From Patescibacteria group bacterium (lineage in GTDB: Bacteria > Patescibacteriota > Minisyncoccia > JAHIHE01 > JAGLIN01): a stretch of DNA of 64,000 bases. The position numbers were made by a program, and so were the translations under genes. Every line of letters starts with the position of its first letter. Position 1 is the first letter of the stretch. Shown here in pieces: positions 3,612 through 52,722 of the stretch. The notes beneath the pieces were generated by a model, which saw only the letters and a program-made list of their open reading frames with translations, ran no database searches and was not told where the DNA came from. The DNA is taken from assembly GCA_019428855.1 (NCBI GenBank), contig JAHYJV010000002.1:1917-65916 (forward strand), read 5' to 3'.

Positions 3612-6600
3612 ATGGAAAAATATAATCACAAAAAAATTGAAAAAAAATGGCAAAATGTTTGGGATGAAAGTGAAATATATCAAGCCAAAGATTCATCAAA
3701 AAAACCGAAATATTATTGTCTGATTGAATTCCCTTATCCATCTGGCGCAGGACTTCATGTGGGACATCTTCGTTCTCATATCGCCATTGATATTGTCGCT
3801 CGCAAAAAAAGAATGGATGGGTTTAATGTGATGTATCCGATTGGATGGGATGCTTTTGGCTTACCAACCGAAAATTTTGCCATCAAAACAAAAACACATC
3901 CAAAAGTTGTAACAAAAAATAATATCAAAAACTATAATCGTCAAATCAAAAGCTATGGCCCAAGTTTTGATTGGTCAAGAGAAATCAATACTACTGACCC
4001 AGAATATTATAAATGGACCCAGTGGATTTTTTTGAAGTTATTTAATAGTTTTTATGATGAAAAGCTAGACAAAGCAAGATTAATTGAAGAACTGAAAGTG
4101 CCAAAGAATTTCAATGAATTTGAAAAAAAAAGATATATTGATAATCACAGACTTGCTTATGAAAAAGAGATGGCGATTAATTGGTGTCCCAGTTGTAAAA
4201 TTGGACTTGCCAACGAAGAAGTTGTCAATGGAAATTGCGAAAGATGTGGTGCCTTGGCCGAGAGAAAAGTGATGAGACAATGGATGCTTCGCATTACAAA
4301 ATATGCCGACCGCTTAATCAAGGATTTGAAGACAGTTGATTATTTGGAAAAAATTAAATCTCAACAAATTAATTGGATTGGAAAATCAGAAGGAGTAACT
4401 ATTAAGTTCAAAGTGAAAAGTGGAAAAATAAAAGATACGAATGACTGCATTGCCACATCGAAAAAAACTCCTCACGATAATAACGAGATTATTGAAGTTT
4501 TCACTACGCGTCCAGACACTTTATTCGGATGCACATATATAGTTCTTTCACCTGAACATCCTTTAATTGAAAAATATAAAAATCAAATAGAAAATTTTAA
4601 GGAGGTTGAAAAATATCAAGATAAAGCTAGCAATAAATCAGATTTGGAAAGAACGGATTTGGCCAAAGAAAAAACAGGAGTGGAACTGAAGGGAATCGAG
4701 GCTATCAATCCAGCAAACAATGAAGAAATTCCCATTTGGATTGCTGATTATGTTCTGGCTTCCTATGGTACTGGTGCGATTATGGCAGTTCCAGCACACG
4801 ATGAAAGAGATTTTGAGTTTGCAGAAAAGTTTGGTATTGCAATTAGGGATGTAGTCGCTCCATTTTTTCAGGCAGATATTGGAAATGAGAACGCCTTACG
4901 ACCTGACAAGAAAACAGTTCGCCGAAGACTAGTTACTGCTTTTGTAAAACATTGGAAAGAAGACAAATATCTTTGTCTTGATTGGAAGAAATTTAAGTGG
5001 CATACCCCAATTATTGGAGGGATTGAAGGGGGAGAAACTCCCGAAGAAGCAGGCTTGCGAGAGATCAGAGAAGAAACTGGTTTTCAAAATATGAAATTTG
5101 TGCATTATCTAGGAGGTGAGCTGCATAATTCTTTTTTTGCTAGACATAAAGATGAAAATCGATATTCAATTGAATATGGAGTATTATTTGAATTGATTGA
5201 TGATAAATGGGAAAAACCAAGTGAAGAAGAAATAAAAAATCATAAAGCTGTTTGGATTAATGCGAAGGAAATGGAAACTTTTTTGAATTTGGAAAGTAAA
5301 AAAATATTATGGCACCGATTGAATGGTAATTTTGAATGTTTTAAAGGAGACGGTGTTAATATAAACTCTGGTTTTTTGGACGGAATGGAAACTATTAAAG
5401 CGAAAAAAGAAATTTCCAATTGGCTCGTAAAAAATAAGCTTGGTCAAAAAGCAGTGAATTTCAAACTTCGCGATTGGATTTTTTCGCGCCAACACTATTG
5501 GGGTGAGCCAATCCCGATTATCAAATGCCGAGAGTGTGGCTTGAAAAAATTAAACATTAAAATGGAATTAAATTTTCGAGTAAATAAAGCTTGGAATCAA
5601 ATAATTGATAATAAAAAAACAATTGAAACTCGAGCACTAAATCCACAAGAAAAAGATAAATTCTTCGGCGATATCAAAGTTGGAGATTTAGTGCGGTTTA
5701 ATAACAAGAATACCCAGGAATTTGAAATTGTCAGAATCAACAAGGTCTATAATTTCAAAAACTTAAGCGAATTATTTGAAACGCAAAAAATAGTTAAAAA
5801 AATATTTACTGATGTAAAAATTAAAAATATATCAGAACTAAAAAAATGCTTTAGCTTTACGGAAGATTATCTAGACCGAATTGAAAAAAATGGTCTAGTT
5901 GGATGGGAATTTGAAAAGATAGACATTACTGAAAATATTTCTCTCTCAGAAAAAGAACTTCCACTGGAACTTCCTAATGTCAAAAATTACGAGCCAACGG
6001 AAACTGGAGAATCGCCACTAGCTAATATAAAAAAATGGGTTGAGATTAAATGTCCAATTTGTGGTGGCAATGCCAAAAGAGAAACAGACACCATGCCAAA
6101 TTGGGCTGGTTCAAGCTGGTATTTTTTGAGATACACAGATCCTGATAATTCAAAAGAATTTGCTTCACAAAAAAATTTACAGCAATGGATGCCAGTTGAT
6201 TTATATAACGGCGGAATGGAACATACCACTCTTCATCTTCTCTATTCTCGATTTTGGCATAAATTTTTATTTGACCTTGAATTTGTCCAGACTTCAGAGC
6301 CATATAAAATGCGTCGCTCGCACGGAATGGTTTTGGCAGAAGATGGTCAGAAGATGAGCAAATCGCGAGGAAACGTCGTCAATCCTGATGAAGTTATTGG
6401 CGAATATGGAGCAGACACTGTTAGATTATATGAAATGTTTATGGGTCCTTATAGCGATGCTATTCCCTGGAACACAACCAGTTTAATTGGTATGAATCGA
6501 TTTTTGCAAAGGATTTGGAATCTACAATCGAAAATTTCAAATACCAAATTACCAAAAAAAGAAACAATTCTGATTGCGACAAATAATCCCGGAAAATTAA

Positions 6601-7610
6601 AAGAACTAAAAAGACATTTTAAAAATTTCCAGATTATTTCTTTAAATGATATTGATAAATCTATTGAAGAACCAGAAGAAAATGAAAAAACATTTGCAGA
6701 TAATTCACTTCTCAAAGCAAGATATTATGCCCAGAAAACAGGCTATCTGACAGTTGCAGATGATAGTGGACTTTGCGTTAATGCACTTGATGGAAGACCA
6801 GGAGTCTTTTCAAGTCGCTATGCTGAGGGTAATGACAAGAAAGGTTGCGTAAAGCTTTTGAAAGAGTTGGAAGGTCTTTCCGACCGATCAGCACACTTTG
6901 AAGCTGTAGTGACGATATATGACTCCAAAAAGGATGAATATCATCAATTTGAGGGTCAGTGTGACGGTGAAATTTTAAGAAAATTCGAGGGAGATAGTGG
7001 GTTTGGATATGATCCAATTTTTATGCCAAATGGTTTTGCAAAATCCTTCGGGCAGTGTTCCATTGAGGAGAAATATTTATTTGATCACAGACAAAAAGCT
7101 ACAAAAAAACTAATCGCTTATCTTGAGAATAATTCGAATAATGATGAAAATAAAATCGAATCATTAATCCACAAAACCATCAAAAAAGTTTCAGAAGATA
7201 TTGATAACTTGAAGTTCAACACTGCCATTTCTCAACTAATGATTTTGGCTAATGAAATAGAAAAAGAAGATAAAATATCATCGGCCAACTTTAAAATATT
7301 TTTGAATTTGCTGTCCCCTTTTGTTCCGCACATCACGGAAGAAATCTGGAAAAATCTAGATGAGAGGCAAAGCATTCACTTGCAGACTTGGCCACAATTC
7401 AATCCACAATTTATCAAAGATACAGAAATAAATTTCGTCATTCAAATCAACGGAAAACTTCGCGATCAAATCATAGTCCCCACTGATATCTCAAAAGAAG
7501 AAGCAAAAAAACTCGCTCTGGAAAGCGAGAAAGTTCAAAAATGGGTTGCAGGAAAGGAAATTAGAAAAGTGTTTTTTGTGAAAGGGAGACTGGTTAATAT
7601 AGTTATCTAA
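3612..7610 (+). CDS. leuS: leucyl-tRNA synthetase with three nested extra domains (1332 aa)
   Basis: All LeuRS landmarks are present and in order: HIGH-type 'HVGH', Zn knuckle 'CPSCK...CERCG', CP1 editing motif 'TTRPDTLFG', 'AVPAHDERDFEFA', 'RDWIFSRQHYWGEPIP', 'KMSKSRGN', and anticodon-binding 'FNTAISQLM'. One uninterrupted frame. Confidence 0.95.
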   Translation: MEKYNHKKIEKKWQNVWDESEIYQAKDSSKKPKYYCLIEFPYPSGAGLHVGHLRSHIAIDIVARKKRMDGFNVMYPIGWDAFGLPTENFAIKTKTHPKVVTKNNIKNYNRQIKSYGPSFDWSREINTTDPEYYKWTQWIFLKLFNSFYDEKLDKARLIEELKVPKNFNEFEKKRYIDNHRLAYEKEMAINWCPSCKIGLANEEVVNGNCERCGALAERKVMRQWMLRITKYADRLIKDLKTVDYLEKIKSQQINWIGKSEGVTIKFKVKSGKIKDTNDCIATSKKTPHDNNEIIEVFTTRPDTLFGCTYIVLSPEHPLIEKYKNQIENFKEVEKYQDKASNKSDLERTDLAKEKTGVELKGIEAINPANNEEIPIWIADYVLASYGTGAIMAVPAHDERDFEFAEKFGIAIRDVVAPFFQADIGNENALRPDKKTVRRRLVTAFVKHWKEDKYLCLDWKKFKWHTPIIGGIEGGETPEEAGLREIREETGFQNMKFVHYLGGELHNSFFARHKDENRYSIEYGVLFELIDDKWEKPSEEEIKNHKAVWINAKEMETFLNLESKKILWHRLNGNFECFKGDGVNINSGFLDGMETIKAKKEISNWLVKNKLGQKAVNFKLRDWIFSRQHYWGEPIPIIKCRECGLKKLNIKMELNFRVNKAWNQIIDNKKTIETRALNPQEKDKFFGDIKVGDLVRFNNKNTQEFEIVRINKVYNFKNLSELFETQKIVKKIFTDVKIKNISELKKCFSFTEDYLDRIEKNGLVGWEFEKIDITENISLSEKELPLELPNVKNYEPTETGESPLANIKKWVEIKCPICGGNAKRETDTMPNWAGSSWYFLRYTDPDNSKEFASQKNLQQWMPVDLYNGGMEHTTLHLLYSRFWHKFLFDLEFVQTSEPYKMRRSHGMVLAEDGQKMSKSRGNVVNPDEVIGEYGADTVRLYEMFMGPYSDAIPWNTTSLIGMNRFLQRIWNLQSKISNTKLPKKETILIATNNPGKLKELKRHFKNFQIISLNDIDKSIEEPEENEKTFADNSLLKARYYAQKTGYLTVADDSGLCVNALDGRPGVFSSRYAEGNDKKGCVKLLKELEGLSDRSAHFEAVVTIYDSKKDEYHQFEGQCDGEILRKFEGDSGFGYDPIFMPNGFAKSFGQCSIEEKYLFDHRQKATKKLIAYLENNSNNDENKIESLIHKTIKKVSEDIDNLKFNTAISQLMILANEIEKEDKISSANFKIFLNLLSPFVPHITEEIWKNLDERQSIHLQTWPQFNPQFIKDTEINFVIQINGKLRDQIIVPTDISKEEAKKLALESEKVQKWVAGKEIRKVFFVKGRLVNIVI
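4854..5342 (+). other. Nudix hydrolase domain inserted in LeuRS (about aa 415-577)
   Basis: Perfect Nudix box GX5EX7REUXEEXGU: 'GGIEGGETPEEAGLREIREETGF' (aa 469-491, nt 5016-5084). It lies between 'ERDFEFAEKFGIAIRDV' and 'GVNINSGFLDG', which are contiguous in ordinary bacterial LeuRS. Confidence 0.8.
5541..5927 (+). other. ASCH/PUA-like domain inserted in LeuRS (about aa 644-772)
   Basis: 'WNQIIDNKKTIETRALNPQEKDKFFGDIKVGDLVRFNN...EFEIVRINKV' matches the ASCH pattern (G-K-K-T-hEhR ... hKhGD). It lies between 'GEPIPIIKCRECG' and 'ELPLELPNV'. Assigned by motif recall; weaker than the other two. Confidence 0.5.
6561..7127 (+). other. RdgB/Ham1 (ITPase) domain inserted in LeuRS (about aa 984-1172)
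   Basis: 'ILIATNNPGKLKEL', 'EENEKTFADNSLLKARYYA', 'VADDSGLCVNALDGRPGVFSSRYA', 'GFGYDPIF' and 'FDHRQKA' align along the whole length with E. coli RdgB motifs (ATGNxGKxxE, ExGxTFxENAxxKA, ADDSGLxVxxLxGxPGxYSARY, GFGYDPxF, SHRxxA). Confidence 0.85.
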
Positions 7611-16041: not shown

Positions 16042-16161
16042 TCTCCGGCGATGACCTACTCTCCCAACCCCGTACGGGGCAAGTACCATCAGCGCTAATG
16101 AGCTTAACTTCTGAGTTCGGAATGGTATCAGGTGTAACATCACCGCTAAAATCACCAGAGA
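16042..16161 (-). rRNA. rrf: 5S rRNA
   Basis: Reverse complement contains 'CCTGATACCATTCCGAACTCAGAAGTTAAGC' and 'GGGAGAGTAGGTCATCGCCGGAGA'. The terminal helix pairs UCUCUGGUGAU with AUCGCCGGAGA. Confidence 0.9.
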
Positions 16162-16317
16162 ATTTGTATACTAAATTATAATAGTGTATATAAAATTTTC
16201 AATATGTCAAATATAAAATTTTTTACATTCAATTGAATTATATAAATAGTTTTACAAACATTAAATGCCAGTTAATCCTTTTATTGCATTTTAATTTAAA
16301 AATGCAATTACATTAAA

Positions 16318-19375
<3,058 letters not shown>

Positions 19376-19683
19376 TAATGTAAGATTAACTAGCAATTAA
19401 AATTTGCAATTTAATATTTTATAATATTTTTTACCTATTTATATATATTCAATTGTCAATGATCATTCAAATCTTATATCTTCCGTTCATCTTCTAAATA
19501 TTAGAAAATGAATTAAAACTATAATTTTAAAAAATAAAACCGCCTTGTTCAGAGGCGATTTTAATCTTGTGATAATCACAAAATTAACCGCCATTTAATC
19601 ACTTAAATTCAATTCCATTTTTTTCATAACTTTATATTATGAATTAATGATTTTGCAAAATTAAAACTAAACATTACTTACAT

Positions 19684-19711
19684 AGAATAGCACAACTAAT
19701 AATACTGTCAA
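19684..19711 (-). promoter_or_regulatory. candidate promoter of the 23S-5S unit (TTGACA-16-TATTCT)
   Basis: Reverse complement of tgtcaa (19706-19711) and agaata (19684-19689). Same architecture and the same GTGCTATT -10 context as the 16S P2 promoter. Confidence 0.5.
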
Positions 19712-19782
19712 GTCTTAATTAATAATGCTTAAAACATAGAAAAAAAATTATTTTTTCAAGGAAGATTATACCTATTTATTGC

Positions 19783-19821
19783 TAAAATAAAAGAAGATAG
19801 ATAAGATTGATCTATCTTCTT
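19783..19821 (-). terminator. intrinsic terminator after the 227-aa membrane-protein gene
   Basis: Perfect 12-bp stem aagaagatagat (19791-19802) / atctatcttctt (19810-19821), followed on the minus strand by TTATTTTA. Confidence 0.7.
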
Positions 19822-19857
19822 TTTAGTGCTGTTAGACAAGTATTGAACAACAAGTTT

Positions 19858-20541
19858 CTATTTTAACTTATCTTTCAATTCATCCAGTAGTTCTTTCGCA
19901 TGGTATTGTCCACCCAATCCAAATGCAAGTCCTCCTGCAATGGCAAGCATTAAAGATAAACCACCTGCAAAAATCTTAATAATTTCCATACCAATTTGAA
20001 TTTGCTCCAGTACAACTAAGAATGTAAATATAATAATCGTCCACTTAAATAAAAATGCAACCAAATGATACATTCGAATTCCACTAGCTTTTGCCAGACC
20101 GTCTGTTGATTCGTACACAAGTTGAGAAATAATAACACCAATTGTCAAGCTAATAATCGCTAGAAATAAACTAGGTAGATAACTTAATATTTGTGCTAGA
20201 AATTCCGATACTTGTGGGATATCCATTATATCTACTACAAACTTTAAAGTAAATATCAGAATAAACCATTTAACCAACCAGCCTACGAGTTTCGAAATCG
20301 AAAAATTTATATTAATTCTTTTAAAACATTTTTTTATCCCAGCTTTTTCCAGCGATTTATCAATACTCATTTTTTCAAAAAGAATTTTTGTTAATTTTTC
20401 AAGTTCAACTGCAAACATCAAACCAATGAAGAAAACAAAGACTGCCGAAAAGATAGAACCCTCTATAAGAAATGCTTGATAAAAATTATAGATCGAACTT
20501 GGAATCTCGTAATAAACATCTGTAAATAAATTATATTGCAT
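19858..20541 (-). CDS. multi-pass membrane protein with repeated TM-helix motifs (MscS-associated 'conserved TM helix'-like)
   Basis: 227 aa, at least 4 TM segments with a repeated pattern, and a C-terminal 'GLGGQYHAKELLDELK'. The functional call is tentative. Confidence 0.6.
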   Translation of the reverse strand: MQYNLFTDVYYEIPSSIYNFYQAFLIEGSIFSAVFVFFIGLMFAVELEKLTKILFEKMSIDKSLEKAGIKKCFKRININFSISKLVGWLVKWFILIFTLKFVVDIMDIPQVSEFLAQILSYLPSLFLAIISLTIGVIISQLVYESTDGLAKASGIRMYHLVAFLFKWTIIIFTFLVVLEQIQIGMEIIKIFAGGLSLMLAIAGGLAFGLGGQYHAKELLDELKDKLK

Positions 20542-20785
20542 TTATAACACCCCCTTTCTTTTTATTTTTTTAATTAAATGTTATTAATTTTTTAAGAAAT
20601 TTATGAAAAAATATTATCTAAAATTGTTTTTATGTCTATGATAATATTATAACACATATTAATTATACTGCAATTTTATTTCGCAAGTTCTATATTGATT
20701 TTAAAATTATATTTTTTAGAAATAAAATCTTAGAAAGTTATCTCTGAGATTTTATTTGTGAACATTAAATTTTGGTGGTGTTTGT

Positions 20786-21191
20786 TTGAAAAAGTCAGAA
20801 CTCATTTTGAACAAAATACAGATTATGCTTGTTCAGAATAGAAAACCCCGCAAAAAGCGAGGGGCAAAAAATTTTCAATATTTAGGTTTTGCTACTTGTG
20901 GGATTTGTGGCTATGCCATAACCGCCGAAAGACATATTAAAAAAAGTGGTTTGAAATTTGTTTATTATTATTGCAACCACAAAAGCAAAACTGTTGCTCG
21001 CACTGAAAATTGTTTTTTTGCGGGAAGAAGCTTTAACCGAACAAGTAAAAAACCTTTGTCAAAAAGTTTCTTTGCCTGATGAGTGGTGGAAAAGAAAACA
21101 ATTGAGGAAAAATTATCGGATTTTGAACGAAAAGGTAATCATTGGCTCGAACTCATGCGAAACTGAATTATTGAAGCCAACCAAGCCGTAA
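20786..21191 (+). pseudogene. frameshifted fragment of a large serine recombinase (zinc-ribbon region only)
   Basis: Frame A: 'FATCGICGYAITAERHIKKSGLKFVYYYCNHKSK', the recombinase Zn-ribbon pattern CGxCG...YYxC. It continues only in another frame as 'FLREEALTEQVKNLCQKVSLPDEW'. The N-terminal resolvase catalytic domain is absent. Confidence 0.6.
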
Positions 21192-21199
21192 ATCTCTAT

Positions 21200-21239
21200 A
21201 AACAAGAAAATCCCTCAAGGATGAGAGATTTTCTTGTTT
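21200..21239 (-). terminator. hairpin downstream of tRNA-Ala (candidate terminator)
   Basis: aaacaagaaaatc (21200-21212) pairs with gattttcttgttt (21227-21239). The T-rich segment is inside the stem, so strength is uncertain. Confidence 0.35.
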
Positions 21240-21367
21240 CCATCGGCTCGAACCGTAGAATTTTGGCGGGAATTATTTCGGCGGAATTCAAAACCCCCTG
21301 GAATTTCTTGGAGAAAACCAATGCCGAGGGGCGAAGCCCCGAGGCAACTTCTTTAACAAATTCGGAC

Positions 21368-21444
21368 TGGTGGACCCAACAGGATTCGAACCTGCGACCC
21401 CCTGCTTGCAAAGCAGGTGCTCTAGCCAACTGAGCTATGGGCCC
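21368..21444 (-). tRNA. tRNA-Ala (UGC), CCA encoded
   Basis: Reverse complement GGGCCCATAGCTCAGTTGGCTAGAGCACCTGCTTTGCAAGCAGGGGGTCGCAGGTTCGAATCCTGTTGGGTCCACCA. Cloverleaf fits, with anticodon loop TTTGCAA. Confidence 0.95.
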
Positions 21445-21555
21445 ATAATTTTTTTCGTTTTATATAATAATATTTGAACATCTTATACTGCTTGATTATT
21501 ATATCAAAATCAACTGTATTCGACTATATCTTAAATATATAAAAGCTAAAACGAG

Positions 21556-21629
21556 TGGGCGTACCTGGACTCGAACCAGGGACCTTTACATTATCAGTGT
21601 AACGCTCTAACCAGCTGAGCTATACGCCC
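21556..21629 (-). tRNA. tRNA-Ile (GAU)
   Basis: Reverse complement GGGCGTATAGCTCAGCTGGTTAGAGCGTTACACTGATAATGTAAAGGTCCCTGGTTCGAGTCCAGGTACGCCCA. Anticodon loop CTGATAA. No encoded CCA. Confidence 0.95.
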
Positions 21630-21954
21630 GGATGCTAATTTCTAATTTTAAATCAATTTCTAATAACTGAATTTTTTATATTAAAAATTAAGACATTAGT
21701 TAAAAATAATGAAATTCACTTCTCTATTATAACAAAAATCGCATCTTATGCAATACTATTGTATAGATGCGATTTTTGTTTTCACTTTTATTACAAACTT
21801 TGTGCAATTGTCCTGAAGGCAATTTTGTTCCTATCTACTCGAAAATAGATAAGCCTGTATTACCAACAGCCAAACATGTAGATGATATTAAAATCATTCT
21901 ACAGACGATCTCGGTGAGTGTATTTCTTTAGACTAAAGAAATAACTTTCTCCCT

Positions 21955-23421
<1,467 letters not shown>

Positions 23422-23636
23422 AATGATAATCTATTCATTGAAGAATAATTTATCTCAAAATATAATAAAGCATAATCAATGGACATAAAAATGTCAATGT
23501 AATTATGCATAAAAGTTTTATCTTGGAATTGTCTATAACCGGATAAGTTTATAGACTCGCAGGACAACTGCACAAAGTTTATATAATTGTGTGTGATTTA
23601 TATTTAATTGTTAATGAACAATTTAATTACTAAGTC

Positions 23637-45040: not shown

Positions 45041-46648
45041 TTACTTTTTTATATTTAGCAATAATATCAGAATTCCATAATAAACTATCCCGAACCAAAT
45101 ACTAATTTTTTCAAAACTAAAAAAGCCAAACTCAACTCCTGCAAAAAAATTAATGATAGCAAGCTGGAGAGATAGAATTAGCCAAACGGGAACTACCAAA
45201 ATTTGTCCAATTACAAGATTTACAAATCCCGCCATAATAGAAATTATACCTCCAATCATCACCACTGGCACAAAAGGTAAAACCAAAATATTGGCAAAAA
45301 CAGAAAGAACAAAAAACTGTCCAAAGCTTTTCATTATAATGGGCAAAGTGGCAATTTGTGCTGAAATAGTAATTAAAAACATACTTTTTATTTTCAAAAA
45401 ATCAGGATATTTTTTGAAAAGCGAATCTAGTTTTGGGAATATATATATTATACCAAGCACTGCTAAAAAAGAAAGTTGGAAACCTGTATCATACCGCAAT
45501 AAATTTGGATTAAATAGAAGCATTAAAGAACCTGCAAAAATTACCGCAATTCCAGCACTTGAGATCCGACCGACCTTAACTGCCAATAAAATCATCACAC
45601 TCATTACAGATGCCCGCACAGCTGAGGGAGGAAAACCAACTAATGTCACATAGAAAAAAATACCCAGAACTGCAAGATAAAAGGCAAAATTTCGATTCAA
45701 CCCAAAGGCAAGCAAGAGAAACATAATCAACACCCCTATAATCGTCATATGTAGCCCCGAGATAGCGATTATATGCCTCGTGCCAGTTCGATTAAAGCCC
45801 TCTAGAGTTTCGTCGCTTAAATCAGATTTTTCACCCAAGACCATTGCGTTAATAATTCCCGCTTGAGGTTGTGAATATATTTTTCGGGCAACCTCACTCG
45901 CCCTTTTCCTATAAATAGCAATTTGTAATTGTATATCTTTGTCCGCATTTTCTATAAGCTCGACTTTTGGATAATATACAACAAAATATATTCCCTGAGC
46001 AAATAAATAATCTTGATATTCAAAACCATCAAAATCTTCGGGAACATTTAATTTTCCTTTAAGGCTAATTTCATCTCCCCTGTTATATTCCGGATATCTC
46101 TCAAGATAAACTATTACATTTCCCAACCTAGACAAACTATTTTCAATCTGCTCGTTTTTAATATTGCTTAACACAATCTTCTGTTTACCATTCCTGATGG
46201 ATGGTGCTTCCGATATTTTTCCCTGCAATAAAATTTCCTCTCCGTTGAGATTTTCGATAAATGAAATATCATTATTCGTCAGCTTATTTATTTCAATTCT
46301 GATCAAACCTAAGGAAAAGAAAATAATAAATACAAACAAGGCAAGAGGAAATAGATTACGAAATGAAGCTAAATTAATGATTTTGGTCCCCTGACCCATC
46401 TCATCAGAAAAAATATTTTTTATATCTTTCAGGTTATTTTTATCGCAGGCGGTATTTTTTAAGCCCCTCTCATAATTCGTATTGGAGGATATTTTCTTGT
46501 TTTTAAGCAAAAAAATAAGTGCAATACAAAATCCCACTATCAAAAACAAAATCCAAACCTCAACCGCATAAAAAGACCCGACCGCAATTCCCATAATAAA
46601 AGAAAGGCAACTTAACAAAAAATATTTTGATTTAGTCATAAATCTCAA
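45041..46648 (-). CDS. comEC: ComEC/Rec2 DNA-uptake channel protein (OB-fold plus competence domain, no MBL domain)
   Basis: 535 aa polytopic membrane protein. 'FNRTGTRHIIAISGLHM', 'GFPPSAVRA' and 'GFQLSFLAV' are ComEC competence-domain signatures. Possible start at 46639. Confidence 0.85.
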   Translation of the reverse strand: MRFMTKSKYFLLSCLSFIMGIAVGSFYAVEVWILFLIVGFCIALIFLLKNKKISSNTNYERGLKNTACDKNNLKDIKNIFSDEMGQGTKIINLASFRNLFPLALFVFIIFFSLGLIRIEINKLTNNDISFIENLNGEEILLQGKISEAPSIRNGKQKIVLSNIKNEQIENSLSRLGNVIVYLERYPEYNRGDEISLKGKLNVPEDFDGFEYQDYLFAQGIYFVVYYPKVELIENADKDIQLQIAIYRKRASEVARKIYSQPQAGIINAMVLGEKSDLSDETLEGFNRTGTRHIIAISGLHMTIIGVLIMFLLLAFGLNRNFAFYLAVLGIFFYVTLVGFPPSAVRASVMSVMILLAVKVGRISSAGIAVIFAGSLMLLFNPNLLRYDTGFQLSFLAVLGIIYIFPKLDSLFKKYPDFLKIKSMFLITISAQIATLPIIMKSFGQFFVLSVFANILVLPFVPVVMIGGIISIMAGFVNLVIGQILVVPVWLILSLQLAIINFFAGVEFGFFSFEKISIWFGIVYYGILILLLNIKK

Positions 46649-46904
46649 TTATTTTTTCACTCTTTTTTTCTCCTTTTATTATCGTAATTTTACTCTTTGC
46701 AATTTTTAGTTCTTTTGCCAATAATTTTACCAATTCTTTATTCGCTTTTCCATCTACTGGAACTGCAGTTAGATATATTTTTAAAAATGGTAAATCATCT
46801 TCACCCTTATTTTTTTTAAAATTTAAATCCAGCTTAAATAAACTATCTAAACCAACTACTTCATTTCTAGAAGACCTTGTTATGACTTTGCAATTAACTT
46901 TCAT
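46632..46904 (-). CDS. DUF167/YggU-family protein
   Basis: 90 aa. 'LKIYLTAVPVDGKANKELVKLLAKELKIAKSKITIIKGEKKSEK' matches the YggU pattern (PxxGxAN..L...LA..L.V.KS.V.I..G..SR.K). Confidence 0.8.
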   Translation of the reverse strand: MKVNCKVITRSSRNEVVGLDSLFKLDLNFKKNKGEDDLPFLKIYLTAVPVDGKANKELVKLLAKELKIAKSKITIIKGEKKSEKIIEIYD

Positions 46905-46938: not shown

Positions 46939-47658
46939 CTACGAGATAACAACATTTTTACAGCTAGTGCGTATTTTTTTTGCTATCTCCTCTAAATATT
47001 CGTTTTGATGAGGTATAACTTTTTCAAAGTCCCGATGAAGAGTTTTTTCCGGTTTAAAATTCTGAACTGAATACCGATATAATTTTGAAAATGTTTTTTT
47101 ATTAATTCCGTTTATCCATTCCATAATTTCGTCAAAATCATTGAGATTAACATATCCAGGAACAACTGTAGTTCGAAGCTCTAATTCACTTCTACTTTTG
47201 GTAATTAAGTCTATACAGTTTTCGATTTCTTCTATAACATCATTTCCTTTAGTCATAATCTTATATTTTTGCGGAGTTGTCTTTATGTCAATGGCCCAAT
47301 AGTCAACCAAGTCTTTATTTAATAAATTTCCAACAACATTTGAGTGTGATGCGTTGGTATCGAGTTTTATTAAAAATCCCATTTCTTTTACATTTGTCAG
47401 AAATTTAATCAAGCCAGATTGCAATGTTGGTTCTCCACCAGTTACACAAATTCCGTCTAAATCCCCTTTTCTCGAAACCAAAAAATCAAGCACATCCTCT
47501 TCACTGATTTGATTATCATAATTTATTAATTTTGGATTTACAATTTCCGAATTATGACAAAAGGGACAACGAAAATTACAACCCGAGGTAAAAACAGTTG
47601 CCGCAATTTTTTCTGGATAATCAAGCATTGTAAATTTTTGAAATCCTCCAATTAACAT
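46939..47658 (-). CDS. nrdG: anaerobic ribonucleotide reductase activating protein (radical SAM)
   Basis: 239 aa. 'GCNFRCPFCHN' CxxxCxxC cluster motif and 'GICVTGGEP'. Immediately downstream of nrdD. Confidence 0.88.
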   Translation of the reverse strand: MLIGGFQKFTMLDYPEKIAATVFTSGCNFRCPFCHNSEIVNPKLINYDNQISEEDVLDFLVSRKGDLDGICVTGGEPTLQSGLIKFLTNVKEMGFLIKLDTNASHSNVVGNLLNKDLVDYWAIDIKTTPQKYKIMTKGNDVIEEIENCIDLITKSRSELELRTTVVPGYVNLNDFDEIMEWINGINKKTFSKLYRYSVQNFKPEKTLHRDFEKVIPHQNEYLEEIAKKIRTSCKNVVIS

Positions 47659-47834
47659 AAAAGTAAATCAATTAATTAATTTGATTACAAATAATACAGA
47701 TTATTTCCTCTTTCTGGCAAAAATTAGTTTTTCAAAAAAATTAAGCAACAAAAAAATCACAAACATAAAAAACATTTGAGATTTTATTTATAACAATTTT
47801 ATTTTTCAATAACATAATCGTATTGATAATAACT

Positions 47835-49577
47835 TTATACTTCCGTGGTTGCAGTGATAATATCGGGATATTTTTTAGTATCTTTTCGAGCCAAACTATA
47901 GGATGTTCCCTCTCCTGGAGTTGCTTCTAGATTGAATAATCCGCCTGTTTCTTCTTGATATTTAATCATTCTCTCACGCATAAACTCCAGAATATCTTGA
48001 GCAAATTTATTTCCTTTTTTTGTGGCGACATTCGTTCTTGTTCCTTTAAAATTTAGCAAAGCCTCATTCATACCAATAATTCCAATTGTGGAAAAATGAT
48101 TTCCCCAATATTCCCCTCTTTGAAGTTTTATATTTGAAAGAAAATATTTTGAATACGGATACAATCCCTTTTCCGTAAAAACTTCCAGATTCTTACGTTT
48201 AATTTCAAGACTTTCTTTTGCTAAATCCATATTCTTCCCTAATCGTGCATAAAATTCCTTCTTATCTTTTGAGAGATAACCGATTCGAGGAAGATTAATC
48301 GTTACTACTCCAATCGAACCTGTCAGTGGATGTGCCCCAAAAAGTCCACCTCCTCGTTTGTAAAGCTCACGATTATCAAGACGCAATCTACAACACATTG
48401 ATCTGGCATCTTCTGGTTTCATATCAGAACCGATATAATTTGCAAAATAAGGAATTCCATATTTTGCCGTCATTTCCCAAATTGGATCTAGATTTGGATC
48501 ATCCCAATTGAAGTCCTTTGTAATATTATAAGTGGGAATTGGAAAAGTAAATACACGACCACTAGCATCACCTTCAAGCATTACTTCTGCGAAAGCTCTA
48601 TTCAAAAGACTCATTTCATCTGTAAAATCTTTGTACTGTTCTTTTTGTGCAACACCTCCAATAATTACGAATTCGTTCGCAAGTGTAGAAGGAACTACCA
48701 AATCCATCGTGATATTTGTAAATGGAGTTTGAAATCCAACTCTCGTAGGAACATTCATATTAAAAACAAATTCCTGTATTGCTTGTTTTACATCTCGATA
48801 GGTCAATTGATCATATTTAATAAAGGGAGCCAAAAGAGTGTCAAAACTAGAAAAAGCTTCCGCTCCAGCTGCCTCTCCTTGAAGTGTATAGAAAAAATTT
48901 ACAACTTGACCTAAGGCAGAACGGAAATGCTTTGGAGCTTTACTTTCAATTTTTCCACTAACACCACCAAAACCGTGGGTTATCAACTCTTTTAAATCCC
49001 ATCCACAGCAATAAACTGCCAGTAGTCCCAAGTCATGTATATGAAAATCACCGCTTTCATGAGCTTCTCTAATTTTTGGCGGATAAATTTTTTCAACCCA
49101 ATACTTTGCAGTAATAATTGTCGAGATATGATTATTCAAGCCTTGTAAAGAAAAAGCCATATTGCTATTCTCTTTCACTCTCCAGTCAATTTCCTTTAAA
49201 TAATCATCAACCAAATCGATTGATTTTTTCATTACATCCTGACTTTCTCTTATTAACCTATGTTGCTCGCGATAAATTATATAAGACTTTGCTGTTTCGA
49301 TATAATTTTCCCTAATGAGGAATGTTTCCACGATGTCCTGCACTTCCTCCACAGTCGGAATTTCAACTTTCAGCTTTCCTCCACCATTTCTAACGGTAAA
49401 CCTTTTGTTAATTTCACATTCAACTTTTTTCGCAAGATTAACTGCATTCCTTTTGGAACCTTCTTCTGTGGCAATAAAAGCTTTAGAAATCGCATTAATG
49501 AGTTTCTTTTTTTCAAATTTAACAACTCTGCCGTCACGCTTTCTAATTTCCTTAACTTTTATTTTTTTTGAATCCAT
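47835..49577 (-). CDS. nrdD: anaerobic (class III) ribonucleoside-triphosphate reductase, lacking the C-terminal glycyl-radical domain
   Basis: 580 aa. N-terminal ATP-cone ('KRDGRVVKFEKKKLINAI'), 'GDFHIHDL', finger-loop 'SMCCRLRLD' at about aa 394, and 'NLEATPGE'. It ends '...ITATTEV' at a TAA stop, with no Cys4 Zn site or RxCGY motif. Confidence 0.85.
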   Translation of the reverse strand: MDSKKIKVKEIRKRDGRVVKFEKKKLINAISKAFIATEEGSKRNAVNLAKKVECEINKRFTVRNGGGKLKVEIPTVEEVQDIVETFLIRENYIETAKSYIIYREQHRLIRESQDVMKKSIDLVDDYLKEIDWRVKENSNMAFSLQGLNNHISTIITAKYWVEKIYPPKIREAHESGDFHIHDLGLLAVYCCGWDLKELITHGFGGVSGKIESKAPKHFRSALGQVVNFFYTLQGEAAGAEAFSSFDTLLAPFIKYDQLTYRDVKQAIQEFVFNMNVPTRVGFQTPFTNITMDLVVPSTLANEFVIIGGVAQKEQYKDFTDEMSLLNRAFAEVMLEGDASGRVFTFPIPTYNITKDFNWDDPNLDPIWEMTAKYGIPYFANYIGSDMKPEDARSMCCRLRLDNRELYKRGGGLFGAHPLTGSIGVVTINLPRIGYLSKDKKEFYARLGKNMDLAKESLEIKRKNLEVFTEKGLYPYSKYFLSNIKLQRGEYWGNHFSTIGIIGMNEALLNFKGTRTNVATKKGNKFAQDILEFMRERMIKYQEETGGLFNLEATPGEGTSYSLARKDTKKYPDIITATTEV

Positions 49578-49738: not shown

Positions 49739-51004
49739 TTATTCATCTTTGCTCATTTTTTTTCTTATAAATGCCGGCACATCATATTCATCATCAGATT
49801 TGACTGGATTAATATTTGATGTGAATATTCTCTCTTCTTTTTTCTCCTCAAAATCATCTCTAGAAATATTTAAATTATCAGCTTCGTCTGTGTTGTTGTT
49901 ATTATCTTCATTTTTATTTTCTTCTTCATAATTAAAATCATCTTTTTTCTTAAATATTTCATTATTAATTACCGAACTTAAATTTGCAACTTTTGATGAT
50001 GTTTTGAATGAATTAGCATTAACACCGATTCTTTTGCTTGTATTATTTTTTTCTGAAAATCCCGTTGCAATGACAGTTATCTTTATTTCCCCCTGTTTTA
50101 AATTTTCATCTGTAATTGCTCCAAAAATAACTTTAGCATCATCATCAATAAATTCAGTAATGACATTTGCCGCCTCATTTACTTCCATCATGGTTAAATC
50201 AGGTCCACCACTAACATTGAACAAAACTCCTCTTGCTCCATCAATTGACATCTCCAATAGCGGACTATTAATTGCTTGTTTAGCGGCTTCAATCGCTCGA
50301 TTCTCACCAGATGCAATTCCGATACCCATTAATGAAGATCCAGCACCCTGCATAATAGCTTTTACATCTGCAAAATCTACATTAACAATACCTGGAATAG
50401 TAATTAAATCAGATATTCCTTGAACGCCCTGTCGCAAAATATCATCTGCAATCTTGAATGATTCAAGTAGAAGTGTTTTCTTATCAATCACTTGCAAAAT
50501 TTTATCGTTTGGTATAGTAATAATTGTGTCAACTTGATTCATTAAATTTTCTAATCCTTCATCTGCGATTCTCCTTCTTTGTATTCCCTCGAAAATAAAT
50601 GGTTTTGTTACAACTGCAACCGTAAGTGCTCCTGCTTCTCGTGCGGCCTCTGCGATAATTGGTGCAGCACCTGTTCCAGTTCCGCCACCAAGCCCGCAAG
50701 TTATAAAAACCATGTCTGTATTTTTTAACACATCTTGGATTTCATCTTTATTCTCTTCAGCAGCTTGTCGTCCAACATCTGGATTCATACCCGCACCCAA
50801 GCCTCTAGTCAGATTTTTACCAATATGAATTTTTTCACCTGCTTTGCAATGATGAAGATCTTGAGAGTCAGTATTAATCGCAATAAATTCTACTCCACTC
50901 AAACCCGCTTCAACCATTCTACTTATTGCATGGTTACCGCTTCCACCAACACCAACAACTTTTATTCTGGCGAATGTTTCAAATTCTGGTTTAATTTCTT
51001 TCAT
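49739..51004 (-). CDS. ftsZ: cell division protein FtsZ
   Basis: 421 aa. 'GVGGSGNHA', '[12 protein letters not shown]', 'NVDFADV' and a C-terminal 'DVPAFIRKK' peptide. Confidence 0.97.
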
Positions 51005-51477
51005 ATAATTAATAACTTAAATTATTTTACTTTGACTGTTTATATTTTACCTTTTTTAGAAAATTTAGGCAAGACATGTTTACAAGCTTTATTAAGATGT
51101 CTATCTCTAATAATTATATGTAGGGATTTGTAATAGCATAAACAATTAACAAAACAATCAATACTACTAAGTCATATGAAATCATTTTTCCATATTTTAT
51201 TTCTTCCTTTTTATCTCTTCTTTCTAAAAAATATTTAATACCGCCATATATGAATTCAAAAAAAATCCATGTCAACCCCAAAAACCAATTAATTACACTG
51301 AAAATTAAATTATCCGCAACAACTCCTCTTAGTTTTAGAAATTTATCTTTAATATGATTTAAAACATTTTCCGTGCTTCTCTTTGTGTCCTTCGTATTCT
51401 TTTGTTTAATTTTGTTTAATTTTTGAATTTTTTAAACGTTATACAAAATTATTTTTTAAATTTTATCTATCAAGATT

Positions 51478-52722
51478 TTATGGTAGAAAAGTTTTGAATA
51501 CACTTCTTATTTTCTGTAAAATATCCTTGATTTGTGGTAATTTTATACCGCCACTATCTTGAGAAAAAAATCCATTTTCATCAGTTTCCCACAACAAAAG
51601 TCCAATCACGGTCGCAAACGATGGATCATCCACTTTGTCAATTATACCATTTAGTTCAGATGGAATTCCAATTTGTGCTGGTAGACGCAATTTTTCTTTA
51701 GCCATGGAAACCATACCCTGCATTTTTGCACCACCGCCAGTTAGAACTACACCAGCTGGAAGCATTCCACTTTTGTCGATTTTCTTAAGCTCTTTATTAA
51801 CCAGAAAAAATATTTCCTCAACCCTAGCTTCAATAATTTCTGCTAAATATTTTCTAGTAAAAATTCCTTCTTCACTTGAATCAATCTTTGAAATGTCAAT
51901 CTTATCTTTTTTGGCAATTTCCTTGGAACTTACAGTTCCATATTCGAGTTTAATTTTTTCAGCCACATCAATTGATGTTCGCAGTCCAATAGCAATATCA
52001 TTGGTAATATGACCAGATCCAATAGGTATAACTGTTGAGTGTAATATATTCCCATCTTCGTATACAGATATTCCCGTAGTTCCTTTACCAATATCAATTA
52101 TCACAACACCAAGTTCTTTTTGTCTTTTTGTCAGAACTGCCTTTGCTGCTGCAAGTGGTGCAAAAATTAAATCATCGATATCAATCCCCGCTCTTTGTAC
52201 ACACTTTGAAAGATTCTTAATGAAAGGAGCCATGCCTTCAATTACAAGAGAACTAACCTCAAGCCTTACCCCATTCATACCGATAGGATCCTTAATTTGA
52301 TCCTGACCATCTATTGTATAATTACAGGGTATTACTGCGATAATCTCTTTATTATTAGGCATTGAAATCGCTTGTGATGCGTTTATAACCCTAGTAACAT
52401 CCTCTTCGCTAATTTCGCCATCAGCCCTTGAAACAGCAACAACGCCTTTTGATGGCTGGGTGCATAAGTGACTTCCATTAATACTTATAAAAGCATGCTC
52501 AACTGGAACACCGGAGGTTTGTTCCGCGAGCTCCTTTGATTTATTTATGGCCGAAATTGTTTCATCAATATCAACTATAACTCCATTGTTAAGTCCAAAA
52601 GATGGAGCAATCCCAACACCTAAAATTAACGGTTTTGATTCATTCCCTTGTTTTTGAGAAATTACAGTTCTCACAAAACTGCTTCCAATGTCAATACCAA
52701 CTAATATATTATTTCGTGACAT
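51478..52722 (-). CDS. ftsA: cell division protein FtsA
   Basis: 414 aa actin-fold protein. 'GIDIGSS', 'DIGKGTT' and 'VLTGGGA'. Upstream of ftsZ. Confidence 0.93.
   Translation of the reverse strand: MSRNNILVGIDIGSSFVRTVISQKQGNESKPLILGVGIAPSFGLNNGVIVDIDETISAINKSKELAEQTSGVPVEHAFISINGSHLCTQPSKGVVAVSRADGEISEEDVTRVINASQAISMPNNKEIIAVIPCNYTIDGQDQIKDPIGMNGVRLEVSSLVIEGMAPFIKNLSKCVQRAGIDIDDLIFAPLAAAKAVLTKRQKELGVVIIDIGKGTTGISVYEDGNILHSTVIPIGSGHITNDIAIGLRTSIDVAEKIKLEYGTVSSKEIAKKDKIDISKIDSSEEGIFTRKYLAEIIEARVEEIFFLVNKELKKIDKSGMLPAGVVLTGGGAKMQGMVSMAKEKLRLPAQIGIPSELNGIIDKVDDPSFATVIGLLLWETDENGFFSQDSGGIKLPQIKDILQKIRSVFKTFLP

What the first reader, a model, noticed from the sequence alone, without database searches (positions are those of the whole stretch)
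47659..49577. Class III ribonucleotide reductase NrdD ends before the glycyl-radical domain while its activase NrdG is intact
**Seen in sequence**
- The nrdD ORF is 580 aa, with an ATP-cone and a finger-loop SMCCRLRLD at about aa 394.
- It stops at TAA right after '...EATPGEGTSYSLARKDTKKYPDIITATTEV'.
- No Cys4 zinc site and no RxCGY-type motif occurs after the finger loop.
- The 176-bp AT-rich gap to nrdG (47659-47834) could encode at most about 58 aa and shows no such motif in any frame.
- nrdG (CNFRCPFCHN) looks intact.

**Established knowledge**
- In characterised NrdD enzymes the radical-bearing glycine lies in a conserved C-terminal segment, about 260-290 residues after the thiyl-radical cysteine. 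It is G681 of 712 aa in E. coli and G580 of 605 aa in phage T4.
- This glycine is indispensable for catalysis and is the substrate of NrdG.

**Inference**
- The gene may be a recent pseudogene, which would be serious for a genome where this may be the only RNR.
- The C-terminal domain may be supplied in trans from elsewhere, analogous to GrcA/YfiD rescuing PFL.
- There may be an assembly or sequencing problem at the 3' end.
Basis: partly seen in the sequence, partly recalled or inferred. Interest (0 to 1): 0.55.

Follow-up and report, generated by a model that had tools for sequence, protein, structure and literature searches.

The report
Two-gene anaerobic ribonucleotide reductase
The anaerobic ribonucleotide reductase gene here really stops before its radical-bearing end, but this is a conserved gene split in a large group of Patescibacteria whose missing 130-residue end is made from a separate small gene, so it is neither a dead gene nor an assembly error.

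Summary
nrdD (47835-49577, minus strand) encodes 580 aa and ends at TAA. It lacks the last ~127 positions of the NrdD profile, which hold the zinc site and the glycyl-radical loop. nrdG is intact. No missing piece lies in the 176-bp spacer or anywhere else in the 64-kb window.

It is not a recent pseudogene or an artefact. About 89 of the 120 closest protein clusters, from many independent assemblies, stop at the same seam (YPDIITA plus 2-40 residues). dN/dS against relatives is 0.03-0.06, with synonymous sites saturated.

The missing part exists as a stand-alone gene of 129-160 aa with its own ATG. It carries PFYTNS...CPxH...CPKC...YSRVVGYLRPV. The two pieces tile the NrdD models exactly (NF006126 positions 2-553 and 549-683).

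- In a sister clade the halves are adjacent on one contig: ftsZ, nrdD-N, 153 bp, nrdD-C, nrdG.
- In the window's own clade the small gene has moved to prfB-[nrdD-C]-ftsE-ftsX. It co-occurs with the large gene in five metagenomes.

Best reading: a two-chain class III RNR whose radical domain is a separate polypeptide. The small gene of this particular genome lies outside the window and was not seen. I found no published description of a split cellular NrdD.

The parts
47835..49577 (-). nrdD large chain (N-fragment, 580 aa): ATP-cone plus the first eight strands of the catalytic barrel with the thiyl-radical finger loop; it ends at the conserved seam
   Evidence: ORF and translation. PF13597 profile 1-435/562 and PF03477. 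NF006126 871 bits (cut-off 548), positions 2-553/684. dN/dS 0.03-0.06 against relatives.
49257..49550 (-). ATP-cone (aa 10-107), the allosteric activity site
   Evidence: PF03477, E = 2.2e-17; coordinates.
49158..49172 (-). ENSNM (aa 136-140), which corresponds to the NxN flap over the substrate described for P. copri NrdD
   Evidence: Sequence. N142 and N144 of P0073 are invariant in the 34-sequence alignment. The flap is described in PMC11226230.
49032..49046 (-). FHIHD (aa 178-182), the HxHD substrate-phosphate motif
   Evidence: Sequence. H184 and H186 of P0073 are invariant. The motif is described in PMC11226230.
48375..48401 (-). Finger loop SMCCRLRLD (aa 393-401) with the radical cysteine pair Cys395/Cys396
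   Evidence: The S-M-C-C-R-L motif is invariant across split and full-length relatives.
47850..47870 (-). YPDIITA (aa 570-576), the last conserved segment before the seam. In full-length relatives a 4-12-residue linker and PFYTNS follow.
   Evidence: In the AlphaFold model of full-length P0073 this lies at the start of a coil (residues 575-606) with pLDDT below 50.
47835..47837 (-). TAA stop codon at the seam
   Evidence: A second in-frame stop follows 11 codons later.
47659..47834 (.). 176-bp AT-rich spacer between nrdD-N and nrdG. No coding remnant and no known RNA family. It holds promoter-like hexamers for nrdG (weak evidence).
   Evidence: 17.6% G+C, stops in all frames, and spacers in relatives of 33-139 bp that are not conserved. 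No Rfam match at E <= 1. Promoter-like sites at 47809-47781 and 47720-47691, no terminator-like site.
46939..47658 (-). nrdG, the radical-SAM activase (239 aa) expected to install the glycyl radical on the separately encoded small chain
   Evidence: CNFRCPFCHN. PF04055. TIGR02495 NrdG2 191 bits, cut-off 131.
49739..52722 (-). ftsA (51478-52722) and ftsZ (49739-51004) directly upstream; conserved synteny that identifies the orthologous locus in relatives
   Evidence: The order ftsA-ftsZ-nrdD(N)-nrdG-DUF167-comEC recurs in L011-L021, L102-L113 and L114.
45041..46904 (-). DUF167/YggU gene (46632-46904) and comEC (45041-46648) downstream; conserved context
   Evidence: the same genes lie downstream in relatives.

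Best explanation
The window carries the large chain of a naturally split class III ribonucleotide reductase.

**Origin.** An ancestral single-chain nrdD was cut in a flexible surface linker. The cut lies after the third-last barrel strand, the phosphate-binding loop LEATPGEGTS and the following helix.

**The two chains.**
- The 580-aa chain keeps the ATP-cone, NxN flap, HxHD motif, cysteine finger loop and eight of the ten barrel strands.
- A separately encoded chain of about 150 aa supplies the last two barrel strands, the Cys/His zinc ribbon, the glycyl-radical loop (YSRVVGYLRPV) and the C-terminal helix.

**Proposed mechanism (inferred).** The two chains assemble non-covalently to complete the barrel. 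NrdG, encoded beside the large chain, abstracts hydrogen from the glycine of the small chain. That radical is then passed to Cys395/396 of the large chain for nucleotide reduction.

**Shown here:** the conserved truncation under purifying selection; the existence, completeness and conservation of the small gene; exact tiling of the NrdD models by the two pieces; adjacency of both halves in a sister clade; relocation to prfB-[C]-ftsE-ftsX in the window's clade; and co-occurrence in the same samples.

**Inferred:** that this particular genome has the small gene (it lies outside the window), that the chains assemble without being joined, and that NrdG activates the free small chain.
For: 1. **Recurrent seam.** About 89 of the 120 best hits end 2-40 residues after YPDIITA; 28 are full length.
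2. **Purifying selection.** For the N-fragment, dN/dS is 0.02-0.06 with dS of 0.4 to above 3. For the one C-fragment pair whose synonymous sites were not saturated (L001 against L022), it is 0.028.
3. **Stand-alone small genes.** A search with the C-terminal 143 aa of the nearest full-length relative (P0073) returned stand-alone proteins as its top 27 hits (142-160 aa, 70-81% identity). Each has its own Met, a Lys-rich leader and all motifs. G127, Y128, C97, H100, C110 and C113 are invariant in 15 sequences.
4. **Exact tiling.** The N piece covers PF13597 1-435, TIGR02487 1-453 and NF006126 2-553. The C piece covers PF13597 426-562, TIGR02487 450-579 and NF006126 549-683.
5. **Both halves on one contig.** L114 reads ftsZ' - nrdD-N 593 aa - 153 bp - nrdD-C 151 aa - 167 bp - nrdG'.
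6. **Relocated small gene in the window's clade.** It sits in a conserved housekeeping locus, prfB-[C]-ftsE-ftsX, inside long contigs and with in-frame upstream stops.
7. **Co-occurrence.** The exact N protein P0006 and the exact C protein P0139 share five of six metagenome samples. N protein P0242 (MCK5412971.1) and C protein P0244 (MCK5412756.1) are 215 accession numbers apart, so they are very probably from one MAG.
8. **Seam in a flexible linker.** It falls in a low-confidence coil of the full-length model, between helix 565-574 and helix 607-624. The C piece aligns to T. maritima NrdD 516-645 and P. copri NrdD 607-736. The glycyl-radical domain is known to be mobile in P. copri NrdD (PMC11226230).
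9. **Intact partner.** A bona fide nrdG is retained next to the large chain.
Against: - The small gene of this very genome was not observed. It is not in the 64-kb window, and the genome is absent from the gene-position index.
- Same-genome linkage in the window's own clade rests on sample co-occurrence and accession proximity, not on one contig.
- The small gene belonging to the 831-kb scaffold that carries N-fragment P0022 was not among the 120 C-fragment hits listed in either search; 1235 and 1710 proteins passed the thresholds.
- No biochemical, transcript or proteomic evidence exists that the chains assemble or that the enzyme is active.
- The AlphaFold model of the small chain alone has low confidence (pLDDT 62). 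No complex could be modelled with the tools.
Confidence: 0.85

Rival explanations
1. Recent pseudogene: nrdD has lost its 3' end and is decaying, leaving the organism without a working class III RNR.
For: The ORF lacks the indispensable glycine, and nothing in the window replaces it.
Against: - The same end point recurs in about 89 related clusters, down to 66% identity.
- dN/dS is 0.03-0.06 with saturated synonymous sites.
- All catalytic motifs in the retained part are invariant.
- nrdG is retained.
- The matching small gene is itself conserved.
Confidence: 0.03
2. Assembly or sequencing artefact at the 3' end, such as a frameshift, a chimeric join or a collapsed region.
For: None beyond the unusual length.
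Against: - Identical architecture appears in independent assemblies from ENA, NCBI, JGI and Logan.
- The stop is followed by AT-rich non-coding DNA with stops in all frames.
- Spacers of 33-176 bp cannot hold about 130 codons.
Confidence: 0.01
3. The halves are rejoined after transcription or translation, by a split intein (protein trans-splicing) or a bipartite group I/II intron (RNA trans-splicing), giving a normal single-chain NrdD.
For: - RNR genes are favoured sites for inteins and introns. Phage nrdD genes interrupted by group I introns or inteins are documented (PMC3653736).
- Relatives of this very protein carry an intein at VGFQ|C.
- A relative fragment (P0156) shows an intein at EATPGEG|TSY, about 20 residues before the seam.
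Against: - The large chain ends only 2-8 residues after the last NrdD-homologous position. It has no Hint/intein match.
- The small chain has only a 10-25-residue Lys-rich, non-conserved leader. It has no intein match and no conserved +1 nucleophile.
- No Rfam intron family matches the nrdD 3' end at E <= 1. None reaches the gathering score in L114, L001 or L009.
- Each small gene has its own ATG after in-frame stops.
Confidence: 0.03
4. The 580-aa protein works without any NrdD-type glycyl-radical chain. It might have a new function or a different radical source, and the stand-alone small genes would belong to other organisms or serve another purpose.
For: The small gene was not seen in this genome, and in this clade the two genes are unlinked.
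Against: - A sister clade keeps both halves side by side, between ftsZ and nrdG.
- The nearest full-length relative of both pieces is the same protein, P0073.
- Exact N and C proteins co-occur in five samples.
- The small-chain residues that contact the barrel and the radical loop are invariant.
- nrdG would have no substrate otherwise.
Confidence: 0.05

Closest known systems
Canonical single-chain class III RNR NrdD with activase NrdG (E. coli, phage T4, Thermotoga maritima 4COI, Prevotella copri 8P23)
   Same: - The same family models are matched above their cut-offs.
- It has the ATP-cone, NxN flap, HxHD motif, Cys finger loop, zinc ribbon and RVVGY glycyl loop.
- An NrdG2-type activase is encoded alongside.
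   Different: - The polypeptide is cut about 105 residues before the radical glycine.
- The last two barrel strands and the whole glycyl-radical domain are on a second chain.
- In the window's clade that chain is encoded at an unlinked locus.
Split class II RNR NrdJa/NrdJb (Pseudomonas aeruginosa, Crona et al. 2015, as cited in PMC9669993; Thermus phage phiYS40 nrdJ-a/nrdJ-b, PMC3653736)
   Same: An RNR catalytic subunit is encoded as two polypeptides that must associate. The C-terminal piece carries a zinc-finger-type module.
   Different: - It belongs to a different RNR class, B12-dependent and with no protein radical on the small piece.
- The two genes are consecutive.
- The NrdJ split separates accessory C-terminal domains. 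Here the split removes barrel strands and the radical cofactor itself.
Aeromonas phage Aeh1 NrdA split into NrdA-a and NrdA-b by the homing endonuclease gene mobE (as described in PMC3653736 and PMC7344957)
   Same: An RNR large subunit is translated as two peptides that reassemble into an active enzyme without splicing. This is a precedent that a cut RNR barrel can work.
   Different: - It is class I and viral, and was caused by a recognisable mobile endonuclease gene lying between adjacent halves.
- Here no endonuclease is present, the split is cellular and clade-wide, and the halves are unlinked in the window's clade.
GrcA/YfiD (and T4 Y06I), the autonomous glycyl-radical 'spare part' for oxygen-damaged pyruvate formate-lyase (PMC8683613)
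   Same: A small free-standing protein carries a glycyl-radical loop, is activated by the cognate activase, and docks into a large glycyl radical enzyme core that lacks a functional radical domain.
   Different: - GrcA is homologous to PFL, not NrdD. The small chain here matches only NrdD models.
- GrcA rescues a full-length enzyme after oxygen cleavage.
- Here no full-length enzyme is encoded in the sampled relatives, so the small chain would be an obligate subunit that also supplies two barrel strands.
Phage nrdD genes interrupted by group I introns or inteins (T4 I-TevII intron; Lactococcus phage 949 nrdD-a/nrdD-b; Clostridium phage c-st intein; PMC3653736)
   Same: nrdD appears as two coding pieces in the DNA.
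   Different: - Those pieces are adjacent and are rejoined by RNA or protein splicing.
- Here no intron or intein signature is found, and each piece is an independent gene.

Membership tests
Class III RNR catalytic subunit NrdD (TIGR02487 / NF006126 / PF13597) | Family HMM score above the curated cut-off | tested here: met
   NF006126 871.1 bits (cut-off 548). TIGR02487 419.6 bits (cut-off 326.35). PF13597 477 bits.
Class III RNR catalytic subunit NrdD (TIGR02487 / NF006126 / PF13597) | Thiyl-radical cysteine on the finger loop, with the substrate-binding NxN and HxHD motifs | tested here: met
   SMCCRLRLD aa 393-401, ENSNM 136-140 and FHIHD 178-182. These are invariant in the alignment.
Class III RNR catalytic subunit NrdD (TIGR02487 / NF006126 / PF13597) | C-terminal zinc site and glycyl-radical loop (RxxGY) in the same polypeptide | tested here: not met
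   The ORF stops at profile position 435/562. There is no motif anywhere in the window. The feature is present on a separate ~150-aa protein in relatives.
Class III RNR catalytic subunit NrdD (TIGR02487 / NF006126 / PF13597) | Cognate radical-SAM activase NrdG encoded nearby | tested here: met
   nrdG lies 176 bp downstream. TIGR02495 scores 191.2 bits (cut-off 131.15). CNFRCPFC cluster motif present.
Class III RNR catalytic subunit NrdD (TIGR02487 / NF006126 / PF13597) | Glycyl-radical formation and NTP reduction in vitro | not testable with these tools
   Needs anaerobic reconstitution of the large chain, small chain and NrdG.
Split (two-gene) NrdD, as proposed here | Large chain ends at the YPDIITA seam and is under purifying selection | tested here: met
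Split (two-gene) NrdD, as proposed here | A separate gene in the same genome encodes NrdD profile positions ~430-562 | tested here: inconclusive
   - Met in relatives: on one contig in L114, in the same samples, and probably in the same MAG by accession proximity.
Split intein (protein trans-splicing) | N-intein at the C-terminus of the first piece, C-intein at the N-terminus of the second, and a +1 Cys/Ser/Thr | tested here: not met
   - The tail after the last NrdD residue is 2-8 aa.
- There is no Hint/intein Pfam match in the N or C pieces.
- The leader is Lys-rich and not conserved.
Group I/II intron-interrupted nrdD | Intron RNA structure at the break | tested here: not met
   No Rfam match at E <= 1 in window 47400-48100. 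Nothing at gathering score in L114, L001 or L009 apart from tRNAs.
GrcA/YfiD autonomous glycyl radical cofactor (PF01228 Gly_radical type) | Small protein homologous to the PFL C-terminus that rescues an oxygen-cleaved full-length enzyme | tested here: not met
   The small chains match only NrdD models. No full-length nrdD accompanies them in the loci examined.

The most novel reading that the evidence does not exclude
This Patescibacteria clade runs an obligately two-subunit glycyl radical enzyme. The oxygen-labile radical module is a small protein made from its own gene and exchanged independently of the core, like a replaceable radical cartridge. A 66-kDa catalytic core could then be re-armed by making a 17-kDa chain, giving class III RNR a class-I-like large/small subunit architecture.

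The two genes sit in different cell-division clusters. The large chain follows ftsA-ftsZ and the small chain precedes ftsE-ftsX. That placement would allow dNTP supply to be gated by division-linked expression of the radical chain.
Probability: 0.25. Interest if true: 0.8.

Novelty: new variant of a known kind. Interest (0 to 1): 0.62.

Why it matters
- **A natural experiment for enzymology.** Glycyl radical enzymes are thought to need their radical loop tethered to the barrel. The loop must swing out to meet the activase and back in to reach the cysteine. A natural enzyme whose radical domain, with two barrel strands, is a free polypeptide could show how the domain is presented to NrdG. It could also show how the domain re-docks, and whether it can be exchanged after oxygen damage.
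- **Annotation.** These genes are currently named as an ordinary or 'partial' reductase, and the small chain as a 'hypothetical protein'. Metabolic reconstructions of Patescibacteria could therefore wrongly score the only RNR as broken, or miss the small subunit.
- **Evolution.** The full-length, adjacent-halves and relocated-half arrangements were all found here among close relatives.

Tried and rejected
- **Motif and tblastn search of the whole window** for the missing domain found nothing.
- **Locating the window's own genome** with the look-up of encoding contigs, using the window's NrdD and NrdG, failed. Neither is on record, so the genome's other contigs could not be reached.
- **Genome-contig scan with the small-chain alignment.** The 80 kept loci were almost all full-length nrdD. 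Only L022 was a stand-alone small gene.
- **The 831-kb scaffold carrying N-fragment P0022.** I hoped to find a small chain on it, but none of the C-fragment clusters listed in either search had that contig length.
- **Chimeric query (last 150 aa of the window protein plus P0139) against metagenome contigs**, meant to catch both halves in one scan. Full-length genes matched both parts and filled the list, so the scan was wasted.
- **Charge complementarity between the large-chain tail and the small-chain leader.** I dropped this idea because in the 591-593-aa clade both are Lys-rich.
- **AlphaFold of the small chain alone** gave pLDDT 62, too poor for a fold search.
- **Representative search at 50% clustering** mixed fragments and full-length proteins and did not quantify how widespread the split is.
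- **tblastn of the small chain against phage genomes** hit only full-length phage nrdD, so there is no sign of a phage origin.
- **Literature searches** for a split NrdD or for NrdD in the candidate phyla radiation found nothing specific.
Full report
**1. The observation.** The window is AT-rich (32.8% G+C). On the minus strand, ORF 47835-49577 encodes 580 aa starting at ATG and ending ...EATPGEGTSYSLARKDTKKYPDIITATTEV, followed by TAA. Pfam finds an ATP-cone (aa 10-107) and NRDD (aa 136-575). The NRDD match covers only profile positions 1-435 of 562. NCBIfam agrees: NF006126 scores 871 bits over positions 2-553 of 684, and TIGR02487 scores 420 bits over 1-453 of 581, both above their cut-offs. 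The finger loop SMCCRLRLD is at aa 393-401.

The spacer to nrdG (47659-47834) is 176 bp and 17.6% G+C, with stops in every forward frame. nrdG (46939-47658) has the CNFRCPFC cluster motif and scores 191 bits against TIGR02495, whose cut-off is 131. A six-frame motif scan and tblastn with three NrdD C-termini found no glycyl-radical domain anywhere in the 64 kb; the best E-value was 0.49.

**2. Not a pseudogene and not an artefact.** The homologue search returned the window's own protein, MBW6440516.1 from a 'Patescibacteria group bacterium'. It also returned dozens of clusters from Pacebacteria and Parcubacteria MAGs and metagenomes that are 77-92% identical and 577-585 aa long. Classifying the 120 best hits gave these groups:
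- About 89 stop 2-40 residues after the YPDIITA motif.
- 28 are full length, at 699-730 aa.
- Three are other partial proteins.

The ~900-aa relatives carry an intein at VGFQ|C, yet they end at the same seam. Loci from ENA, NCBI and Logan all show the same gene order as the window: ftsA-ftsZ-nrdD(577-581 aa)-nrdG-DUF167-comEC. Their spacers to nrdG are 33-139 bp.

Nei-Gojobori dN/dS between the window gene and five relatives is 0.03-0.05 at dS of 1.3-2.2. Across all N-fragment pairs it is 0.02-0.06. A truncated gene held at constant length under this much purifying selection over saturated synonymous divergence is a functional gene.

**3. Where the missing part is.** Full-length relatives continue after YPDIITA with a short linker. 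Then comes PFYTNS(S/T)QLPV...KYTGGTV...PTFSxCPxHGY...CPKC...CEVYSR(V/I)VG(Y/F)LRPV. I searched with the last 143 aa of P0073, the nearest full-length relative at 74% identity to the window protein. The top 27 hits were all stand-alone proteins of 142-160 aa at 70-81% identity. Further stand-alone proteins of 129-140 aa ranked lower.

Each begins with Met and a 10-25-residue Lys-rich leader, then carries the whole segment. In a 15-sequence alignment the following residues are invariant:
- the radical Gly-Tyr (G127, Y128);
- the zinc ligands (C97, H100, C110, C113);
- the YTNS, TGGTV and PTFS strands.

The small protein P0139 covers PF13597 426-562, TIGR02487 450-579 and NF006126 549-683. It therefore tiles the family models edge to edge with the window protein.

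**4. Genomic arrangement.**

*Sister clade, large chains of 591-593 aa.* The 3292-bp contig L114 reads ftsZ' - nrdD-N (593 aa, P0091) - 153 bp - nrdD-C (151 aa, P0165) - 167 bp - nrdG'. This is the window's locus with the small gene still in place.

*The window's own clade.* The small gene sits elsewhere, between prfB and ftsE-ftsX. It lies inside contigs of up to 98 kb and has in-frame stops upstream of its ATG. This was seen in three lineages (L001-L008, L009-L010, L022).

*Linkage of the two genes.* The exact large protein P0006 was found in samples SAMN18200489, 490, 491, 493, 495 and 496. The exact small protein P0139 was found in 490, 491, 493, 494, 495 and 496. Five samples are shared, always on different scaffolds. 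In NCBI, small protein P0244 (MCK5412756.1, JAGLJF01) and large protein P0242 (MCK5412971.1) are 215 accession numbers apart. That fits one MAG, but I could not verify it directly.

*The window itself.* It has no prfB or ftsX orthologue, so the expected locus lies outside it and there is no counter-evidence. No other RNR class was found among the 23 window ORFs scanned with Pfam, which covers 21 of the 28 ORFs of at least 250 aa.

**5. Where the cut falls in the structure.** The small-chain profile aligns to T. maritima NrdD 516-645 (4COI) and P. copri NrdD 607-736 (8P23). In P. copri the barrel core is residues 123-671 and the glycyl-radical domain is 676-739. The loop after the third-last strand binds the substrate phosphates, and the radical domain is highly mobile (PMC11226230).

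An AlphaFold model of full-length P0073 (mean pLDDT 70.7) gives the following order of elements:

| Element | P0073 residues |
|---|---|
| Strand LYNLEAT | 552-558 |
| Helix | 565-574 |
| Seam: unstructured stretch, pLDDT below 50 | 575-606 |
| Helix | 607-624 |
| Strand | 629-633 |
| Helix | 641-654 |
| Strand | 659-669 |
| Zinc ribbon | from 673 |
| Glycine loop | 692-703 |
| Final helix | 704-720 |

The large chain therefore ends after the third-last barrel strand, the phosphate loop and its helix. The small chain supplies the last two barrel strands and the whole radical domain. All catalytic motifs of the large chain are invariant between split and unsplit relatives.

**6. Mechanism.** The most likely mechanism is non-covalent assembly of the two chains into a normal NrdD fold. 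NrdG would activate the small chain's glycine, and the radical would pass to Cys395/396. This is inferred.

I tested for splicing and found no support:
- There is no intein or Hint match in either piece.
- Only 2-8 residues follow the last NrdD position in the large chain.
- The leader of the small chain is not conserved.
- No Rfam intron family matches the break at E <= 1, and none reaches the gathering score in the small-gene loci.

Precedents that cut RNRs work as separate peptides are phage Aeh1 NrdA-a/NrdA-b and NrdJa/NrdJb. GrcA shows that a free glycyl-radical module can be activated and can dock into a glycyl radical enzyme core.

**7. Evolution.** A neighbour-joining tree of the N-parts puts all truncated proteins in two sister clades. 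One holds the 577-585-aa proteins and includes the window. The other holds the 581-614-aa proteins. Full-length P0073 branches at the base of the first clade. This implies either two fissions at the same seam or one fission followed by a re-fusion. The tree is too crude to decide.

Three arrangements are seen among these relatives: unsplit, adjacent halves (L114), and a small gene relocated to prfB-ftsEX (the window's clade). The order in which they arose is inferred.

**8. Novelty.** Full-text searches found no description of a split NrdD in cellular organisms or in the candidate phyla radiation. A 2026 review of glycyl radical enzymes mentions only the GrcA spare part. Interrupted nrdD genes in phages are known, but they are intron- or intein-based and adjacent. 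The literature library is limited, and RNRdb could not be consulted, so prior notice elsewhere cannot be excluded. I class this as a new variant of a known kind.

**9. Limits.**
- The small gene of this particular genome was not seen.
- Complex formation and activity are untested.
- Same-genome linkage in the window's clade is indirect.

Noticed in passing
window 3612-7610 (+): A 1332-aa leucyl-tRNA synthetase ORF carries two extra domains inside it. A NUDIX domain (aa 462-561) follows the editing domain. A Ham1/ITPase-like domain (aa 986-1169) lies between the catalytic core and the anticodon-binding domain. Finding two nucleotide house-cleaning domains embedded in an aminoacyl-tRNA synthetase is unusual.
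   Followed up: no
relatives P0029, P0034, P0048, P0054, P0062 (~900 aa); corresponds to window aa ~289, about 48710: Some close relatives of the large chain carry a ~320-aa intein with an endonuclease-like middle part, inserted at VGFQ|C...HN|TPFTN. They still end at the same seam. The window gene has no intein. Another fragment (P0156) shows an intein C-terminus fused at EATPGEG|TSY, about 20 residues before the seam.
   Followed up: partly
L114 2529-2599 and 3120-3233: In the contig with adjacent halves, both spacers share copies of one palindromic repeat (arms such as TTGRATYATGAATCAnGRATCATGAAT and ATTCATRATTCYnnATTCAT). One spacer lies between nrdD-N and nrdD-C, the other between nrdD-C and nrdG. 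It could be a shared operator or terminator, or a small inserted element linked to the fission. L019 has a different perfect inverted repeat (TTCGTGATTCGTG...CACGAATCACGAA) in its nrdD-nrdG spacer.
   Followed up: partly
window 49739-52722 and relatives L001-L010: Both halves of the split gene sit beside cell-division genes. The large chain lies directly downstream of ftsA-ftsZ, and the small chain directly upstream of ftsE-ftsX. Whether this reflects co-regulation with division is unknown.
   Followed up: no
relatives P0076-P0093 (606-614 aa): A second truncated clade has a conserved ~37-residue tail after the seam. The tail is not homologous to NrdD and ends ...(V/A)QKQ(A/T)VCA. Its role and the location of its small chain were not determined.
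   Followed up: no
proteins P0304 (245 aa) and P0353 (836 aa): P0304 starts at the same seam (NRDD profile 429-562) and has a glutaredoxin/thioredoxin-like domain fused to its C-terminus. P0353 is a full NrdD fused to a radical-SAM NrdG-like domain. Their contexts could not be checked, so P0304 may be a partial gene call.
   Followed up: partly
window 16043-23423 (-): A complete rRNA operon reads 16S (21957-23423), tRNA-Ile, tRNA-Ala, 23S (16313-19376) and 5S (16043-16159). The 23S match spans 3064 nt against a 2925-position model, so it may hold about 140 nt of insertions.
   Followed up: no
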